Below are positions 40,987 to 46,972 of a stretch of 64,000 nt of DNA, one piece after another. The DNA comes from Gammaproteobacteria bacterium. GTDB lineage: Bacteria; Pseudomonadota; Gammaproteobacteria; Steroidobacterales; Rariloculaceae. The notes beneath the pieces were generated by a model. It ran no database searches. It was not told where the DNA came from and saw nothing but the letters and a program-made list of their open reading frames with translations. Where the stretch lies: positions 7,012 to 71,011 of the forward strand of contig DATCLY010000043.1 of the NCBI GenBank assembly GCA_036563665.1, given 5' to 3'. Position numbers and translations under genes: made by a program. Position 1 is the first letter of the stretch, and each line of letters opens with the position of its first letter.

Positions 40987-42293
40987 AGGATGTAGCGCGT
41001 CAGGTCCTCGTCCTTGACGAGGTCGCCGAGCTCGCGGTCCACATAGGCGGCGTCGATGACCACGGTCTGGCCGCCGCGGTCCGCCGCCTCGAACGACACC
41101 TTCTCGAGCAGCCGCTCGAGCACGGTGTGCAGCCGCCGCGCCCCGATGTTCTCGCTGCGCTCGTTCACCTGGTACGCCACCTCCGCGATCCGCCGAATGC
41201 CGGACGGAGCGAACTCGAGGTTCACGCGCTCGGTGGCGAGCAGCTCTCTGTACTGCTCGGTGAGCGAGGCGTCGGGCTCGGTCAGGATGCGCTCGAACTC
41301 CTCGATGCCGAGCGAGTCGAGCTCCACGCGGATCGGGAAGCGGCCCTGGAGCTCCGGGATCAGGTCGGACGGCTTCGCGACGCTGAACGCCCCCGAGGCG
41401 ATGAACAGAATGTGGTCGGTGCGCACCATGCCGTAGCGGGTGGACACCGTCGAGCCCTCCACGAGCGGCAGCAGGTCGCGCTGCACGCCTTCGCGCGAGA
41501 CGTCGGCGCCGTAGGACTCCGAGCGGCGGGCGATCTTGTCGATCTCGTCGAGAAACACGATGCCGTTCTGCTCCACCGCCCGCACGGCCTCGAGCTTGAT
41601 CTCTTCCTCGTTCACGAGCTTCGCCGCCTCCTCGTCCTTGAGGAGCTTCATCGCGTCCTTGACCTTGAGCTTGCGCCGCCGGACGCGGCCGCCGCCGAGG
41701 CTCCGGAACATGCTCTGCAGCTGCTGGGTCATCTCCTCCATGCCGGGCGGCGCCATGATCTCGACGCCGAGCGTGGGCGCCTGCACCTCCACCTCCACCT
41801 CGCGCTCGTCGAGCGCGTGCTCGCGCAGCATCTTGCGGAAGCGCTGGCGCGTGTCGCGGCCCTCGCCCGCGTCGAGGCGCGAGCCGGGCAGCAGCGCGTC
41901 GAGCAGCCGCTCCTCGGCCAGGTCCTCGGCGCGGGTGCTCACCTTCTGCATGGCTTCCTCGCGGAGCATCTTCACGGCCATGTCCACGAGGTCGCGGATG
42001 ATCGAATCCACGTCGCGGCCGACGTAGCCCACCTCCGTGAACTTGGTGGCCTCCACCTTGATGAACGGCGCGTTCGCGAGCTTCGCGAGCCGGCGGGCGA
42101 TCTCGGTCTTGCCGACGCCCGTGGGGCCGATCATGAGGATGTTCTTCGGCGTGATCTCGCTGCGCAGCGGCTCCGGGATCTGCGCCCGGCGCCAGCGGTT
42201 ACGCAGCGCGATCGCCACGGCGCGCTTCGCCTCGTGCTGGCCGACGATGTGCTTGTCGAGCTCCTCGACGATCTCGCGAGGCGTCATCGACAT
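40983..42293 (-). CDS. hslU: ATP-dependent protease ATPase subunit HslU
   Basis: [49 protein letters not shown] and [10 protein letters not shown]. Confidence 0.98.
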
Positions 42294-42309
42294 GGTCCGC
42301 TCCCGTCCA

Positions 42310-42852
42310 TTAGAGCTCCTCGATCACCACTTCGCGGTTGGTGTAGATGCAGATGTCCCCCGCGATGGCGAGCGCCTTCTCCACGATAGCGCGGGCGTCG
42401 AGCTCCGTGTTCTCGAGGAGCGCGAGCGCGGCGGCCTGTGCGTACGCGCCGCCCGAGCCGATGGCGAGCAGGTCCCGCTCGGGCTCGATGACGTCGCCGG
42501 TGCCGGAAAGGAGCAGCGACTGGTTCTTGTCCGCCACGATGAGCAACGCCTCGAGCCGCCGCAGCATGCGGTCCGTGCGCCAGTCCTTGGCGAGCTCGAT
42601 GGCCGCCCGCGTGAGGTTGCCGTACTGGTCGAGCTTGCCCTCGAAGTGCTCGAACAGCGTGAACGCGTCGGCCGTGGCGCCCGCGAACCCGGCGAGCACC
42701 TTGTCGCCGTGCAGCCGGCGCACCTTGCGGGCGTTGCCTTTGACGACCTTGTCGCCGAGCGTGACCTGGCCGTCGCCGCCGAGCGCCACGCGGCCGTTGC
42801 GCCGCACGCACAGGATGGTGGTGCCGTGAAAAACGTCGCTGCCTTTGGCCAT
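42310..42852 (-). CDS. hslV: ATP-dependent protease subunit HslV (with short propeptide)
   Basis: FHG|[30 protein letters not shown] and ICIYTN. Confidence 0.97.
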
Positions 42853-42891
42853 GCGTGGAGTCTTCCTCTCTGCCGGGCTCAGCGGCCCGGA

Positions 42892-43812
42892 TCAGCCTTG
42901 GCGGCGCCGGGCGCGGGGATGGGCTCGGTCGTAAATGTGGGCCAGATGCTGGAAATCAACGTGGGTGTACACCTGGGTGGTGGACAGGCTCGCGTGCCCC
43001 AGCATCTCCTGCACCGCCCGCAGGTCGCCGCTCGACTCGAGCAGGTGCGTGGCGAACGAGTGGCGCAGCATGTGCGGGTGAACGTGCATCGGCGCGCCCT
43101 GGCGGCGGGCCCAATGGGCGACCCGCGCCTGGATCGTGCGGTGCGCGAGCCGCCGCCCCCGCCCGCTCACGAAGAGCGGCCCCGTGGCCGTATCCGCGCC
43201 GGCGCCCACCTCCCGCAGCCGCCGCGCCCGCACGGGCAGCCACGCCTCGAGCGCTTCCCGGGCCCGGCGCCCGACGGGCACGATGCGGGCCTTGGAGCCC
43301 TTGCCCAGGACCCGCACGGTGCCGTCCGCGAGGTCCACGTCCGGCACGTCGAGCCCGGCGAGCTCCGCGAGCCGCAGGCCGGACGAGTAGAAGAGCTCGA
43401 GGACCGCCCGGTCGCGCACGGCCTCGAAGCCGTCTCCGCGGATCTCGAGCAGGCTCGCGACCTGGTCGACGTCGAGGGTCTTCGGCAGCCGCCGGCCGGC
43501 CTTCGGCGCCTGCACGTGCACGGCCGGGTTCGACTCGAGCCGGCCGCGCTCCACGAGGAAGCCGAGAAAGGTCCGCACGGCCGAGAGCCGTCGCGCGAGG
43601 CTGCGCGGCTTGAGGCCGCGGCGATGGCCTTCCGCCACGAAGCGGCGGATGGCGTAGGAGTCGAGCGCGGCGAACGACTCGATGCCGAACCGGCGGCAAT
43701 GCTCGATCAGCGCCGCGACGTCGCGCCCGTAGGCGGCGACCGTGTGGCGGGAGAGCCGCCGCTCGGTGCCGAGCCTCGCGAGAAACTCCGCGAGGTCCCG
43801 CTCCGCGTTCAC
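42892..43812 (-). CDS. xerC: Tyrosine recombinase XerC
   Basis: RDRAVLELFYSSGLRLAEL, VLGKGSKAR, HPHMLRHSFATHLL and LGHASLSTTQVYTHV. Usual dapF-DUF484-xerC-hslV context; GTG 43812. Confidence 0.95.
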   Translation of the reverse strand: MNAERDLAEFLARLGTERRLSRHTVAAYGRDVAALIEHCRRFGIESFAALDSYAIRRFVAEGHRRGLKPRSLARRLSAVRTFLGFLVERGRLESNPAVHVQAPKAGRRLPKTLDVDQVASLLEIRGDGFEAVRDRAVLELFYSSGLRLAELAGLDVPDVDLADGTVRVLGKGSKARIVPVGRRAREALEAWLPVRARRLREVGAGADTATGPLFVSGRGRRLAHRTIQARVAHWARRQGAPMHVHPHMLRHSFATHLLESSGDLRAVQEMLGHASLSTTQVYTHVDFQHLAHIYDRAHPRARRRQG

Positions 43813-44531
43813 CGCGCGGGTGCCGGGAACAGCGCGACGGTGATGAGCTCGCCCAGGCGGCTCAGGAAATCCATGCGCTTGCCCGGGTGGAAGTGCTCGG
43901 GGTCGCGGTTGCCGATGATGAGGAAACCGCCCTCCGGGTGCCCCGCCTCGGTCAGGGGGCCGAGCGGCACCATGGCGGCGGACCCGAGCACCTCGCCGTC
44001 GCGGCCGAAGAGGTCCTTCTGGCGGTCGCGCAGCACGCCGCACCGCGGCCGCCCGGCACGCAGGAAGGTGGCGAACGGCTTCAAGGCCGCGTCGTCCGGA
44101 TCGAGCCGGAGCACGAAGCCGTCGCGCACGAGCGCGGGGTCCGCCTGCGGGAACAGCACGAGCAGCGCCCGCTCGGCCAGGAAGTCCTCGCGCAGGCTGG
44201 TCTCGATGCGCTCGAGCAGGGCGGCCGGGGAGTCCGCCGCGAGGAGCCCCGTGGCGAGCCGGTGCAGCTTCTCGACGAGCGCGTCGTTCTCCTTGGCCAC
44301 GGCCACGAGGTCCTTGAGCTGCCGCTCGAGCTGCGCGTTGCGCTCGCGCAGCACCGCCACCTGGCGCTCGATGAGCGAGATGGTGGCGCCGCCGCTACGG
44401 TGCTGCAGCCTGAGCCCGAGCAGCAGGAGCGGATGGCGCTCGAAGAAGTCGGGATGGGTTCGCAGGTACTCGGCGATTTCGGCCTCCTGGAACGAATCGC
44501 CGACCGCGGCTTGGCTCTTCGGTTGACTCAT
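43809..44531 (-). CDS. DUF484 (YigA) family protein
   Basis: IAEYLRTHPDFF, SLIERQVAVLRERN and FHPGKRMDFL. ATG 44531 overlaps the dapF stop. Confidence 0.92.
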   Translation of the reverse strand: MSQPKSQAAVGDSFQEAEIAEYLRTHPDFFERHPLLLLGLRLQHRSGGATISLIERQVAVLRERNAQLERQLKDLVAVAKENDALVEKLHRLATGLLAADSPAALLERIETSLREDFLAERALLVLFPQADPALVRDGFVLRLDPDDAALKPFATFLRAGRPRCGVLRDRQKDLFGRDGEVLGSAAMVPLGPLTEAGHPEGGFLIIGNRDPEHFHPGKRMDFLSRLGELITVALFPAPAR

Positions 44532-45343
44532 AGATCGATTCGACCCTCGTACACCGTGGTCGCGGGGCCCGTCTGTTGCAGCGACGCGCCCGGCCCCGGC
44601 CAGCGCACCGTCAGCGAGCCGCCGGGCAGCGCCACCTCGACTTCGGGCTCGAGCAGGCCCCAGCGCCTGCCCACCGCCACGGCCGCGGCTGCGCCGCTGC
44701 CGCACGCGAGCGTCTCGCCCGCGCCGCGCTCGAAGACGCGCAGACGGATGCGCGAAGGCGTCACGCGCTCCATGAATCCGACGTTGACCCCTCTCGGAAA
44801 AGCAGCATGTGCTTGCAGCTCCGGAGCCAGTATACCGACGGGCGCGCGTTCCACCGAATCCACCGGGATGACCGCGTGCGGGTTACCCATCGACACGGCG
44901 CCGAGCTCCACCTCGCCGCTCGCGACGCGCAGCCGGTACCGCTCGCGCTCCTCGTCCGCGACGAACGGCAGCGACGCCGGGCGGAAGTCCGGCACGCCCA
45001 AGTCCACGGTGACGAGGCCGCGCTCGTCCACGCGGGCCGTGATACGCCCGGCGCCGCCTTCGAGCAGCACCTCGCCGCCGCCGGACGGCGCGAGGTAGCG
45101 GGCGAGGCAGCGCACGCCGTTGCCCGACTGCTCGGCCTCGCCGCCGTCCGAGTTGAAGACGCGGTAGGTGGCCGTCACGCCCGGACGACGGCCGATCAGA
45201 AGGAGCTGATCGAAGCCGATGCCCCGGCGGCGGTCGCCCAGGCGCCGGATGCGTTCGGGCGCGGGGGCCGGCACGCCTTCGGGCCACTCCATGAGCACGA
45301 AGTCGTTGCCGAGCGCCTCCATCTTGGTGAACGGCAGCCGCAT
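44528..45343 (-). CDS. dapF: Diaminopimelate epimerase with Ser replacing the first catalytic Cys
   Basis: FTKMEALGNDF, GIGFDQLL, FNSDG, EQSGNG (normally EQCGNG), SMGNPH, GVNVGF, RVFERGAGETLACGSG. Confidence 0.92.
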   Translation of the reverse strand: MRLPFTKMEALGNDFVLMEWPEGVPAPAPERIRRLGDRRRGIGFDQLLLIGRRPGVTATYRVFNSDGGEAEQSGNGVRCLARYLAPSGGGEVLLEGGAGRITARVDERGLVTVDLGVPDFRPASLPFVADEERERYRLRVASGEVELGAVSMGNPHAVIPVDSVERAPVGILAPELQAHAAFPRGVNVGFMERVTPSRIRLRVFERGAGETLACGSGAAAAVAVGRRWGLLEPEVEVALPGGSLTVRWPGPGASLQQTGPATTVYEGRIDL

Positions 45344-45478
45344 GCTGTCTGTCGCGGGCCGCGCGCGGCCGCGTTTCCCCCTCTGCTCTGGTAATGCCCG
45401 GTATGGAAGGTTAATGTCGCCCGCCGGCGCGCGTTTCGTGGACGCGGCGGCAACGCGGATTATAGTGGTTAATCGATA

Positions 45479-46972
45479 GTGGATTCGATCTGGCAGCGGC
45501 CGCACGCCACCTACCGGGACCTGCGCGAGTTCCTGGACGCGCTGCGCGCGCGAGGCGAGCTTCGCGAGATCGCCGCGCCCGTGAGCCCCGTGCTCGAGCT
45601 CACCGAGATCTCGCGCCGGGTGCTCGCCCGCGGCGGCCCGGCGCTGCTCTTCACGCACGTGGGCGACGGTCGCGTGCGCACGCTCACCAACCTCTTCGGC
45701 ACGCCCGGCCGCGTGGCCGCCGCGCTCGGCGCGGACGACACGCGGGCGCTCGCCGAGCTCGGCAAGCTGCTCGCGGCGCTGCGGGCGCCCGAGCCGCCGA
45801 AGGGCATCGCCGAGGCCTTCCGCACCCTGCCGCTGATCCGCGAGGCGCTCAAGATGGCGCCCCGCACCGTGCGCAGCGCGCCCTGCCAGGAGGAGCGCGT
45901 GGAAGGCGCCGCCGTCGACCTCGCCCGCTGGCCCGTGCAGACCTGCTGGCCCGAGGACGCGGGCCCGCTGATCACCTGGGGCCTCACCACCACCCGGGGT
46001 CCCGACGGCGGCCGCCAGAATCTCGGTGTCTATCGCCAGCAGGTCATCGGCCCCAACAAGGTCATCATGCGCTGGCTCGCCCACCGCGGCGGCGCCGGGG
46101 ATTACCGGGCGTGGCTCGCGGCCCGTCCCGGCGAGCGCTTCCCCGTGGCGGTCAGCATCGGGGCCGACCCGGCCACGATCCTCGCGGCCGTCACGCCGAT
46201 CCCGAACACGCTGTCGGAGTACTCGTTCGCGGGGCTGCTGCGAGGCGAGAGGACGGAGCTCGTGCGGTGCCTGGGCTCCGATCTCCTCGTGCCCGCCAGC
46301 GCCGAGATCACGCTCGAGGGGTACATCGAGCCCGGCGAGGAGGCGCCCGAAGGGCCGTTCGGCGACCACACCGGCTACTACAACGAGGTCGAGCGCTTCC
46401 CGGTGATGACGATCGAGCGCATCACCCACCGCCGCGACCCGATCTACCACACCACGTACACGGGGCGGCCCCCCGACGAGCCGGCGGTGCTCGGCCTCGC
46501 CCTGAACGACGTGTTCGTGCCGATCTTGAAGACGCAGTTCCCGGAGATCGTGGACTTCTACCTGCCCGCCGAGGCCTGCTCCTACCGCCTGGCCGTGGTC
46601 AGCATCCGCAAGGAGTACCCCGGGCACGCGCGGCGCATCATGTTCGGGGTGTGGTCCTACCTGCGGCAGTTCATGTACACGAAGTTCATCATCGTGGTGG
46701 ACGACGACATCGACGCCCGCAACTGGCAGGACGTGATCTGGGCGGTGTCCACGCGCGTCGACCCCGCCCGCGACACGGTGCTGGTGGAATCGACGCCGAT
46801 CGACTACCTCGATTTCGCCTCGCCGACCGCCGGCCTAGGCTCGAAGCTCGGCATCGACGCCACCACGAAGTGGCCGGGGGAGGTCACGCGGACGCAAGGG
46901 CGCCCGATCACGATGACCGCGGACGTCGTGGCGCGCGTCGATCGGATGTGGAGCGAGCTCGGCCTCGAGTGA
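45479..46972 (+). CDS. ubiD: 3-polyprenyl-4-hydroxybenzoate decarboxylase
   Basis: [44 protein letters not shown] and YLDFASP. Confidence 0.97.

What the first reader, a model, noticed from the sequence alone, without database searches (positions are those of the whole stretch)
45100..45140. DapF has Ser instead of the first catalytic cysteine
Seen: EAEQSGNGVRC with codon TCG, two changes from TGC/TGT, so unlikely to be a single read error. The second site (ETLACGSG) keeps Cys. Established: DAP epimerase uses a Cys73/Cys217 thiol-thiolate pair, and Cys-to-Ser single mutants retain only weak activity. In the related proline racemase fold, swapping one Cys converts epimerases into dehydratases or changes substrate. 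The gene sits in the canonical dapF-DUF484-xerC operon, so it is the orthologue. Inference: a natural Ser/Cys epimerase, a unidirectional or altered enzyme, or a relaxed gene complemented by another meso-DAP route.
Basis: partly seen in the sequence, partly recalled or inferred. Interest (0 to 1): 0.55.

Follow-up and report, generated by a model that had tools for sequence, protein, structure and literature searches.

The report
Natural serine/cysteine DapF epimerase variant
The only diaminopimelate epimerase gene of this uncultured soil gammaproteobacterium really has serine in place of the first of its two catalytic cysteines; the same swap has arisen at least ten times among its relatives and is conserved like the normal form, so it is probably a working enzyme and a half-way version of the all-serine DapFs first reported in 2025.

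Summary
The dapF gene (window 44528-45343, minus strand) reads EAEQSGNGVRC, with Ser73 encoded by TCG, and keeps the second catalytic Cys (Cys214, equal to E. coli Cys217).

It is not a read error. Two other sequences, 93% and 90% identical, also carry Ser. At least 30 further DapFs do too, using three different Ser codons (TCC, TCG, AGC).

- **Recurrence:** a tree of 115 DapFs needs 10-12 Cys/Ser switches. Almost all lie in this gammaproteobacterial order, and in one family 5 of 15 species carry Ser.
- **Asymmetry:** the second cysteine is never replaced.
- **Rest of the site:** 14 other active-site residues are invariant in the 10 Ser-type sequences checked.
- **Selection:** dN/dS is the same for Ser-type pairs (median 0.145) and Cys-type pairs (0.167).
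- **No bypass:** the Ser-type genomes checked have one DapF, no Ddh and no extra Alr/DapF2-type racemase, but they do have dapD, dapE, lysA and a DAP-type murE.

Best reading: a functional Ser/Cys DAP epimerase, perhaps slower and immune to active-site disulfide inactivation. The "relaxed gene with a bypass" reading is not supported.

Natural Ser/Ser DapFs were reported active in 2025, and this scan has seen them in other genomes. The mixed pair is therefore a new variant of a known kind.

The parts
44528..45343 (-). dapF, diaminopimelate epimerase, 271 aa (P0001); the only DapF-family gene in the genome
   Evidence: TIGR00652 equivalog at 241 bits and two PF01678 domains. Single PF01678/TIGR00652 locus in G000. 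Best PDB match is E. coli DapF, E 1e-74.
45107..45139 (-). First catalytic motif, EAEQSGNGVRC (canonical form is ..QCGNGxRC)
   Evidence: Translation. All 30 DapFs read from relatives of this genome have QCGNG at this place.
45125..45127 (-). Ser73 codon TCG, in place of catalytic Cys73 (the base acting on the L-centre of LL-DAP)
   Evidence: Aligned to Cys73 of E. coli DapF. LL-aziDAP alkylates this cysteine in solved structures (PMC12039745).
44702..44704 (-). Cys214 codon TGC, the retained second catalytic cysteine (E. coli Cys217) in ETLACGSG
   Evidence: Cys in 114 of 114 aligned DapFs.
43809..44531 (-). DUF484 (yigA-like) gene; its ATG overlaps the dapF stop (ATGA)
   Evidence: PF04340, E 6e-37. 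Overlap read.
42892..43812 (-). xerC tyrosine recombinase; its GTG start overlaps the DUF484 stop (GTGA). The start is inferred.
   Evidence: PF00589 and PF02899. Overlap read.

Best explanation
This is the organism's working housekeeping diaminopimelate epimerase. It converts LL-DAP from the succinylase pathway into meso-DAP for LysA and MurE.

The acid/base acting on the L-centre is a serine hydroxyl (Ser73) instead of a thiol. The acid/base acting on the D-centre is still Cys214. Substrate binding, domain closure and the two-base 1,1-proton transfer are otherwise as in canonical DapF.

The enzyme may be slower than a Cys/Cys enzyme. It cannot be switched off by the Cys73-Cys217 disulfide that inactivates oxidised Cys/Cys DapFs.

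In this gammaproteobacterial order the Cys and Ser states at position 73 are close to interchangeable and have been swapped repeatedly.

**Shown:** gene identity, reality and recurrence of Ser, conservation of the rest of the site, purifying selection, and absence of known bypasses.

**Inferred:** that Ser73 takes part in catalysis, the rate, and the redox advantage.
For: 1. **Sole route.** There is one DapF locus and no Ddh in G000 and in four other Ser-type genomes. Each of these genomes has one Ala_racemase_C gene, the same as five Cys-type relatives, so no DapF2-like extra copy exists. dapD, dapE, lysA and murE are all above cut-off, and MurE carries the DNPR motif.
2. **Rest of the site.** All 14 other active-site positions (N11, F13, Q44, N64, G74, N75, N157, H159, N190, E208, R209, C217, G218, S/T219) are kept in all 10 Ser-type sequences checked.
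3. **Selection.** dN/dS of ten Ser/Ser pairs has median 0.145 (range 0.07-0.24), against 0.167 for six Cys/Cys pairs.
4. **Only Ser replaces Cys73 here.** The 115 DapFs give 85 Cys, 30 Ser and nothing else, although Gly, Arg, Tyr, Phe and Trp are equally one step from TGC. This points to a retained proton-transfer role.
5. **Recurrence and persistence.** The tree needs 10-12 switches. The Ser codons are TCC (18), TCG (5) and AGC (3). Ser is kept across species pairs down to 63% identity, and Cys-type genes are nested inside a mostly-Ser clade.
6. **Precedent.** Natural Ser/Ser DapFs are reported active (Lamer et al. 2025, via PMC13728532). Cys/Cys DapFs are inactivated by an active-site disulfide (same paper).
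Against: - Engineered Cys-to-Ser mutants of DapF-fold enzymes "hinder catalysis" or are "greatly reduced" (PMC12039745; PMC11602996).
- No first-shell change and no convergent second-site change accompanies the swap that could re-tune the site.
- An E. coli dapF deletion has no growth defect (PMC13759103), so a weak enzyme could be tolerated and the genome evidence cannot give the rate.
- Every Ser-type sequence whose source title I saw is a MAG or metagenome contig, and none could be tied to a cultured strain. No biochemical or cell-wall data exist for them.
- Raw reads were not seen.
Confidence: 0.65

Rival explanations
1. The variant is crippled but tolerated. Ser73 lowers activity by orders of magnitude. 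The change is nearly neutral because these slow-growing soil bacteria need little flux, or because accumulated LL-DAP is turned over by residual activity plus a promiscuous racemase, as proposed for E. coli dapF mutants. The swap therefore drifts in and out.
For: - Cys-to-Ser mutants are strongly impaired in studied DapF-fold enzymes.
- E. coli lacking dapF grows normally.
- Distribution is sporadic and patchy, with apparent reversions to Cys.
- No compensatory substitutions were detected.
- The frequency is low, about 0.75% of 401 genomes in the order.
Against: - Purifying selection on the whole gene and on the active site equals that of the Cys type.
- Only Ser is ever seen at position 73, and position 217 never changes.
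- Ser persists across deep splits: G041 and G044 are 63% identical.
- In one family a third of the species carry it.
Confidence: 0.2
2. The role has changed. The protein no longer serves as the DAP epimerase and is kept for something else. Candidates are a moonlighting partner function (E. coli DapF activates RppH), a different substrate such as lanthionine, or elimination chemistry as in the Cys/Thr hydroxyproline dehydratases of the proline racemase family. Meso-DAP would then come from an unknown enzyme.
For: - DapF moonlights as an RppH activator in E. coli (PMC6061791 and PMC4227774, listed; PMC13728532).
- Loss of one catalytic Cys converts relatives in other families into dehydratases or enzymes reported as one-way (PMC8142540).
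- Earlier scan notes describe one-cysteine DapF domains fused to CarB with presumed non-epimerase roles.
Against: - Every DAP-binding residue, including those for the distal L-centre, is kept.
- The gene stays in its orthologous operon.
- No known alternative meso-DAP source is present, yet lysA and DAP-type murE are.
- A non-catalytic role would not restrict position 73 to Ser.
Confidence: 0.1
3. The Ser is a sequencing, assembly or binning artefact, and the living organism has Cys73.
For: The genome is a 95-contig assembly that earlier scan notes call an uncultured soil gammaproteobacterium, and reads were not available.
Against: - The codon needs two base changes.
- The identical protein occurs in three sources, including the independent Logan assemblies.
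- Variants 93% and 90% identical also have Ser.
- More than 30 other DapFs from unrelated projects have Ser with three different codons.
Confidence: 0.02

Closest known systems
Canonical Cys/Cys diaminopimelate epimerase DapF (EC 5.1.1.7; TIGR00652, PF01678; E. coli 4IJZ/5YGU, H. influenzae 1GQZ/2GKE/2GKJ, P. aeruginosa 8QZY)
   Same: It is the orthologue: same length, same two-domain architecture, same operon (dapF-DUF484-xerC), all substrate-binding residues and the second catalytic Cys. The full-length phmmer match to E. coli DapF has E 1e-74; an identity figure was not computed.
   Different: The first catalytic cysteine (Cys73, the base for the L-centre) is Ser. No thiol-thiolate pair and no active-site disulfide is possible.
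Natural Ser/Ser DapFs
   Same: A natural DapF in which serine occupies a catalytic cysteine position. The same oxidative-stress rationale has been proposed.
   Different: Only one of the two positions is Ser here. The gene sits inside the canonical gammaproteobacterial Cys/Cys clade rather than in a separate Ser/Ser branch. The state toggles between close relatives instead of being fixed over whole classes. The 2025 paper could not be read, so I do not know whether it mentions mixed pairs.
Engineered H. influenzae DapF C73S (PDB 2Q9H; Pillai et al. 2007) and HisR C67S / CntK C72S
   Same: The same residue change at the same position in the same fold. 2Q9H scores slightly higher with this query than the wild-type chain does (240 against 238 bits).
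   Different: Those are laboratory mutants used because the change slows catalysis. This one is a naturally selected sole copy. That 2Q9H is the C73S mutant is from memory; only the molecule name was returned by the tool.
One-cysteine members of other cofactor-independent racemase families (EcL-DER and MMP0739 Asp/Glu racemases with Thr/Cys; trans-3-hydroxy-L-proline dehydratase with Cys/Thr)
   Same: Natural replacement of one of two catalytic cysteines by a hydroxyl residue (PMC8142540).
   Different: They have a different fold or family and use Thr, not Ser. In those cases the change goes with altered reaction or directionality and a distinct paralogue, not with the housekeeping orthologue.

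Membership tests
DapF, diaminopimelate epimerase (TIGR00652 / PF01678) | Full-length match to the equivalog model above its curated cut-off, with two DAP_epimerase domains | tested here: met
   TIGR00652 at 241.4 bits (cut-off 114.65), covering residues 5-269. PF01678 in two stretches, 159.6 bits.
DapF, diaminopimelate epimerase (TIGR00652 / PF01678) | First catalytic cysteine (Cys73, xCGNG) | tested here: not met
   Ser73, codon TCG.
DapF, diaminopimelate epimerase (TIGR00652 / PF01678) | Second catalytic cysteine (Cys217, ACG[ST]G) | tested here: met
   Cys214 in ETLACGSG, aligned to E. coli Cys217.
DapF, diaminopimelate epimerase (TIGR00652 / PF01678) | DAP-binding residues N11, Q44, N64, G74, N75, N157, N190, E208, R209, G218, S/T219 (plus F13, H159) | tested here: met
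   All present in the window protein and in all 10 Ser-type sequences compared. The residue list comes from the published structures and is my own knowledge; the mapping uses the alignment.
DapF, diaminopimelate epimerase (TIGR00652 / PF01678) | Orthologous genomic position and pathway context | tested here: met
   dapF-DUF484-xerC with overlapping stops and starts. dapD, dapE, lysA and murE (DNPR) are in the genome.
DapF, diaminopimelate epimerase (TIGR00652 / PF01678) | LL-DAP to meso-DAP epimerase activity | not testable with these tools
   Needs an enzyme assay or complementation.
Ser/Ser DapF class (Lamer et al. 2025) | Serine at both catalytic positions | tested here: not met
   Position 73 is Ser but position 214 is Cys, and it is Cys in 114 of 114 aligned relatives.
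Bifunctional DapF/glutamate racemase (NF038284) | Score above the model's cut-off | tested here: not met
   81.7 bits against a cut-off of 350.

The most novel reading that the evidence does not exclude
Ser73/Cys217 DapFs are fully competent epimerases. In an otherwise unchanged Cys/Cys scaffold the first catalytic thiol can be replaced by a hydroxyl without any compensating substitution. That makes them the viable evolutionary bridge between thiol-based and all-serine DapFs. The state is favoured where active-site disulfide formation (oxidative inactivation) is a cost, which would explain why it keeps re-arising, and sometimes reverting, in this soil gammaproteobacterial order.
Probability: 0.35. 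Interest if true: 0.7.

Novelty: new variant of a known kind. Interest (0 to 1): 0.5.

Why it matters
DapF is the textbook two-thiol, cofactor-independent epimerase and an antibiotic target whose covalent inhibitors (aziDAP) depend on the two cysteines. Natural all-serine DapFs were reported only in 2025.

A mixed Ser/Cys pair is found here as the sole housekeeping copy. It arose many times among close relatives with no other visible change. This gives matched natural Cys/Ser enzyme pairs, 69-87% identical in the sister pairs compared here.

Such pairs could be used to measure what each catalytic residue contributes. They could show how the pKa mismatch is handled, and whether the swap buys resistance to oxidative inactivation. 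They could also show how a Cys/Cys enzyme can evolve into a Ser/Ser one without passing through a dead intermediate.

The variant also warns annotators and pathway-gap tools not to call such genes inactive.

Tried and rejected
- **The look-up of encoding contigs was closed.** The DNA of the 93%-identical P0002 could not be fetched, so no dN/dS or codon check within the window's own lineage was possible.
- **The first collection-wide DNA pattern was too loose.** It gives a lower bound, not a census.
- **Both pattern scans have blind spots.** They miss AGY-coded Ser and motifs without Q, or without EQ for the strict pattern.
- **Literature gaps.** Searches for C73S kinetics found nothing. Pillai 2006/2007 and Lamer 2025 are not held. 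What I say about them comes second-hand from PMC13728532 or PMC12039745, or from memory.
- **Compensatory or convergent second-site substitutions: none found.** I compared Ser-type with Cys-type sequences and 11 independent sister pairs.
- **DapF-specific acceleration on the window's long stem branch: rejected.** DUF484 and XerC of this species are just as divergent from the genus; the ratios are 0.87-0.90 for all three genes.
- **Bypasses sought and not found:** Ddh, a second DapF, and an extra Alr/DapF2-like racemase.
- **Structure prediction was not run.** The tool returns no coordinates, so it could not add to the sequence-level mapping of the active site.
- **A class-wide census was not run,** because few hits were expected and the output would be very large.

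Full report
**What is in the window**

The minus-strand ORF at 44528-45343 encodes a 271-aa protein, P0001.
- It matches the DapF equivalog TIGR00652 at 241 bits (cut-off 115) over its whole length and has two PF01678 domains.
- Its best solved relatives are E. coli DapF chains, E 1e-74.
- In that alignment residue 73 falls on Cys73 and residue 214 on Cys217.
- Residue 73 is Ser, codon TCG, the reverse complement of 45125-45127. Residue 214 is Cys, codon TGC, at 44702-44704.
- The dapF stop overlaps the ATG of a DUF484 gene (ATGA). That gene's stop overlaps the GTG of xerC (GTGA).
- A ubiD gene diverges upstream.

**Not an artefact**

- The identical protein is on record from NCBI, ENA and the independent Logan assemblies.
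- A 93%-identical protein from another Logan assembly (P0002) and a 90%-identical fragment (P0220) also read QSGNG.
- TCG is two steps from either Cys codon. In relatives the commonest Ser codon is TCC, one step from TGC. This fits a path TGC to TCC to TCG, meaning a Ser old enough to have taken a silent change.
Raw reads are not available to me.

**How common it is**

*Sequences found*
- All 30 DapFs read from genus, family and order relatives of this genome have Cys.
- Among 272 homologues from the two big protein searches, position 73 is C in 261, S in 6, and G, D and A once each. Position 217 is C in 267, and S and T once each.
It still gave four Ser-type DapFs, all in MAGs:
  - a Steroidobacteraceae MAG (G041);
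  - a complete gammaproteobacterial chromosome, OZ244928.1 (G042);
  - a Pseudomonadales MAG (G043);
  - a Danish soil MAG (G044).
- Reading DapF in the relatives of these four added G054 (next to G042) and G452, G456, G457 and G465 (next to G041).
- Around G041, 5 of 15 readable species have Ser. None of 13 do around G044, and none of 20 around G043.
- A strict pattern scan of JGI metagenomes gave 19 contigs. Every one is a DapF with Ser73 and Cys217.
- In an even sample of 401 genomes of the window's order, 3 carry a TCN-coded Ser73 DapF.

*Unpublished genomes*
- G039, G456, G473 and G474 are unpublished genomes.
- The Ser call for G456, one dN/dS pair (L240/L242) and four tree tips (L029, L242, L251, L257) rest on them.
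- The conclusions hold without them.

*Phylogeny*
- A maximum-likelihood tree of 115 DapFs, built without the trait's own column, holds 30 Ser-type sequences.
- It needs 12 Cys/Ser changes, at least 10 of them forced by well-supported branches (smaller trees).
- Three separate Ser lineages lie inside the window's own genus: the window plus P0002; P0095; and P0088/P0122/L220.
- Around G041 there is a mostly-Ser (TCC) clade with nested Cys-type genes (G458 TGT, G460 TGC) and an AGC-coded Ser (G465). Switches therefore seem to go both ways.
- Metagenome sequences were selected for Ser. That can only hide switches, not create them.
- Position 217 is Cys in 114 of 114 sequences, and position 73 is never anything but Cys or Ser.

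**Is the gene still under selection as an enzyme?**

- All 14 other active-site positions are identical in the 10 Ser-type sequences compared.
- Nei-Gojobori dN/dS for ten Ser/Ser pairs has median 0.145 (0.07-0.24). For six Cys/Cys pairs from the same clades it is 0.167 (0.13-0.18) (one search agrees).
- The window lineage sits on a long stem, but its DUF484 and XerC are just as divergent from the genus. The own-versus-genus over genus-versus-genus identity ratio is 0.89, 0.87 and 0.90 for the three genes. There is no DapF-specific acceleration.
- No second-site substitution goes with the swap in 11 independent Ser/Cys sister pairs.

**Is there a bypass?**

I checked the window's genome (100% complete by marker genes) and G041-G044.
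- Each has one DapF locus and no meso-DAP dehydrogenase.
- Each has one alanine-racemase-type gene, the same as five Cys-type relatives. There is therefore no extra DapF2/Alr2-like epimerase of the kind validated in PMC13759103.
- All five have dapD, dapE and lysA above cut-off, and a MurE with the DNPR motif of DAP-adding ligases. The meaning of that motif is my own knowledge.
- These cells therefore make LL-DAP and need meso-DAP, and this protein is the only known way between the two.

**What is known**

- DapF uses a thiolate/thiol pair. LL-aziDAP labels the first cysteine and DL-aziDAP labels the second (PMC12039745).
- Laboratory Cys-to-Ser mutants of DapF-fold enzymes are made because they slow catalysis (PMC12039745; PMC11602996).
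- Oxidised Cys/Cys DapFs of P. aeruginosa and C. glutamicum are inactivated by a disulfide between the two catalytic cysteines (PMC13728532).
- The same paper reports Lamer et al. (J Mol Biol 2025) as finding natural DapFs with two catalytic serines. Changing those serines to cysteines inactivated the Anabaena enzyme, and a link to oxidative stress was suggested.
- I could not obtain that paper, so I do not know whether it treats mixed pairs.
- Earlier agents of this scan found many Ser/Ser DapFs in other phyla. One unfollowed first-reader note records another Ser/Cys DapF-like gene in a different genome.
- In other racemase families, natural Thr/Cys pairs go with altered directionality or dehydratase activity (PMC8142540).
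- An E. coli dapF deletion grows normally but secretes DAP (PMC13759103).

**Reading**

Three facts argue that the residue still does acid/base work and that the protein is the working epimerase (about 0.65):
- Ser is the only replacement ever seen at position 73.
- Position 217 is fixed.
- Constraint is unchanged, and no bypass exists.

How fast the enzyme is cannot be read from sequence. It may be much slower and simply sufficient (rival, about 0.2). A changed or moonlighting role is unlikely given the intact DAP site (about 0.1). An artefact is very unlikely (about 0.02).

The repeated swaps without compensation, concentrated in one soil order, suggest that Cys and Ser are near-equivalent there. 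Immunity to active-site disulfide formation is a plausible but untested advantage.

**Verdict**

The "relaxed gene with a bypass" reading is not supported. Because serine-based DapFs are now published, this is a new variant (a mixed pair, recurrent, inside the canonical clade) of a known kind, of moderate interest.

Noticed in passing
window 43809-44531 and 42892-43812 (minus strand): dapF, DUF484 and xerC are chained by 4-nt stop/start overlaps (ATGA, then GTGA with a GTG start for xerC). This suggests translational coupling of three functionally unrelated genes.
   Followed up: partly
P0244 and P0201 (proteins): Two distant DapF homologues (about 40% identity) carry other states. P0244 reads EQDGNG and LASGTS (Asp at 73, Ser at 217). 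P0201 reads QMGGNG (Gly at 73) with the second Cys kept.
   Followed up: no
L241 (G457) and L243 (G465): Two Ser-type DapFs also have Leu instead of the usual Gln just before the Ser (ELSGNG). They use different Ser codons (TCC and AGC).
   Followed up: no
G008, G010, G015, G016, G019, G002: Several genus relatives, assembled into few long contigs, show dapF split into pieces or with an in-frame stop (G010 TAA, G008 TGA). These look like frameshift errors of long-read assemblies rather than real pseudogenes, but this was not checked.
   Followed up: no
G042:C1:2410600-2411670: The best lysA match of the Ser-type genome G042 contains one in-frame TAG, and its second lysA-like match contains a TGA. 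It is unclear whether these are assembly errors or matches that run across gene borders.
   Followed up: no
G043:C107:19826-21975: In the Pseudomonadales Ser-type MAG, lysA lies directly upstream of the Ser-type dapF (the classic lysA-dapF arrangement). In the window's genome lysA is on another contig (C71).
   Followed up: no
window 42037-44526 (+) and 44528-46627 (-): ORFs of 829 and 699 aa overlap real genes on the opposite strand or run far upstream of dapF. They are open frames of the kind expected in 71% G+C DNA, not genes.
   Followed up: partly
P0001 residue 79 (window 45107-45109): The only other cysteine in the protein is Cys79, in GNGVRC, six residues after Ser73. From published DapF structures (my own knowledge) it should lie on the helix that starts at residue 73. 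It is conserved in Cys-type relatives too and is Ala in two divergent ones (L171, L191), so it is unlikely to be a substitute base. This was not tested structurally.
   Followed up: partly
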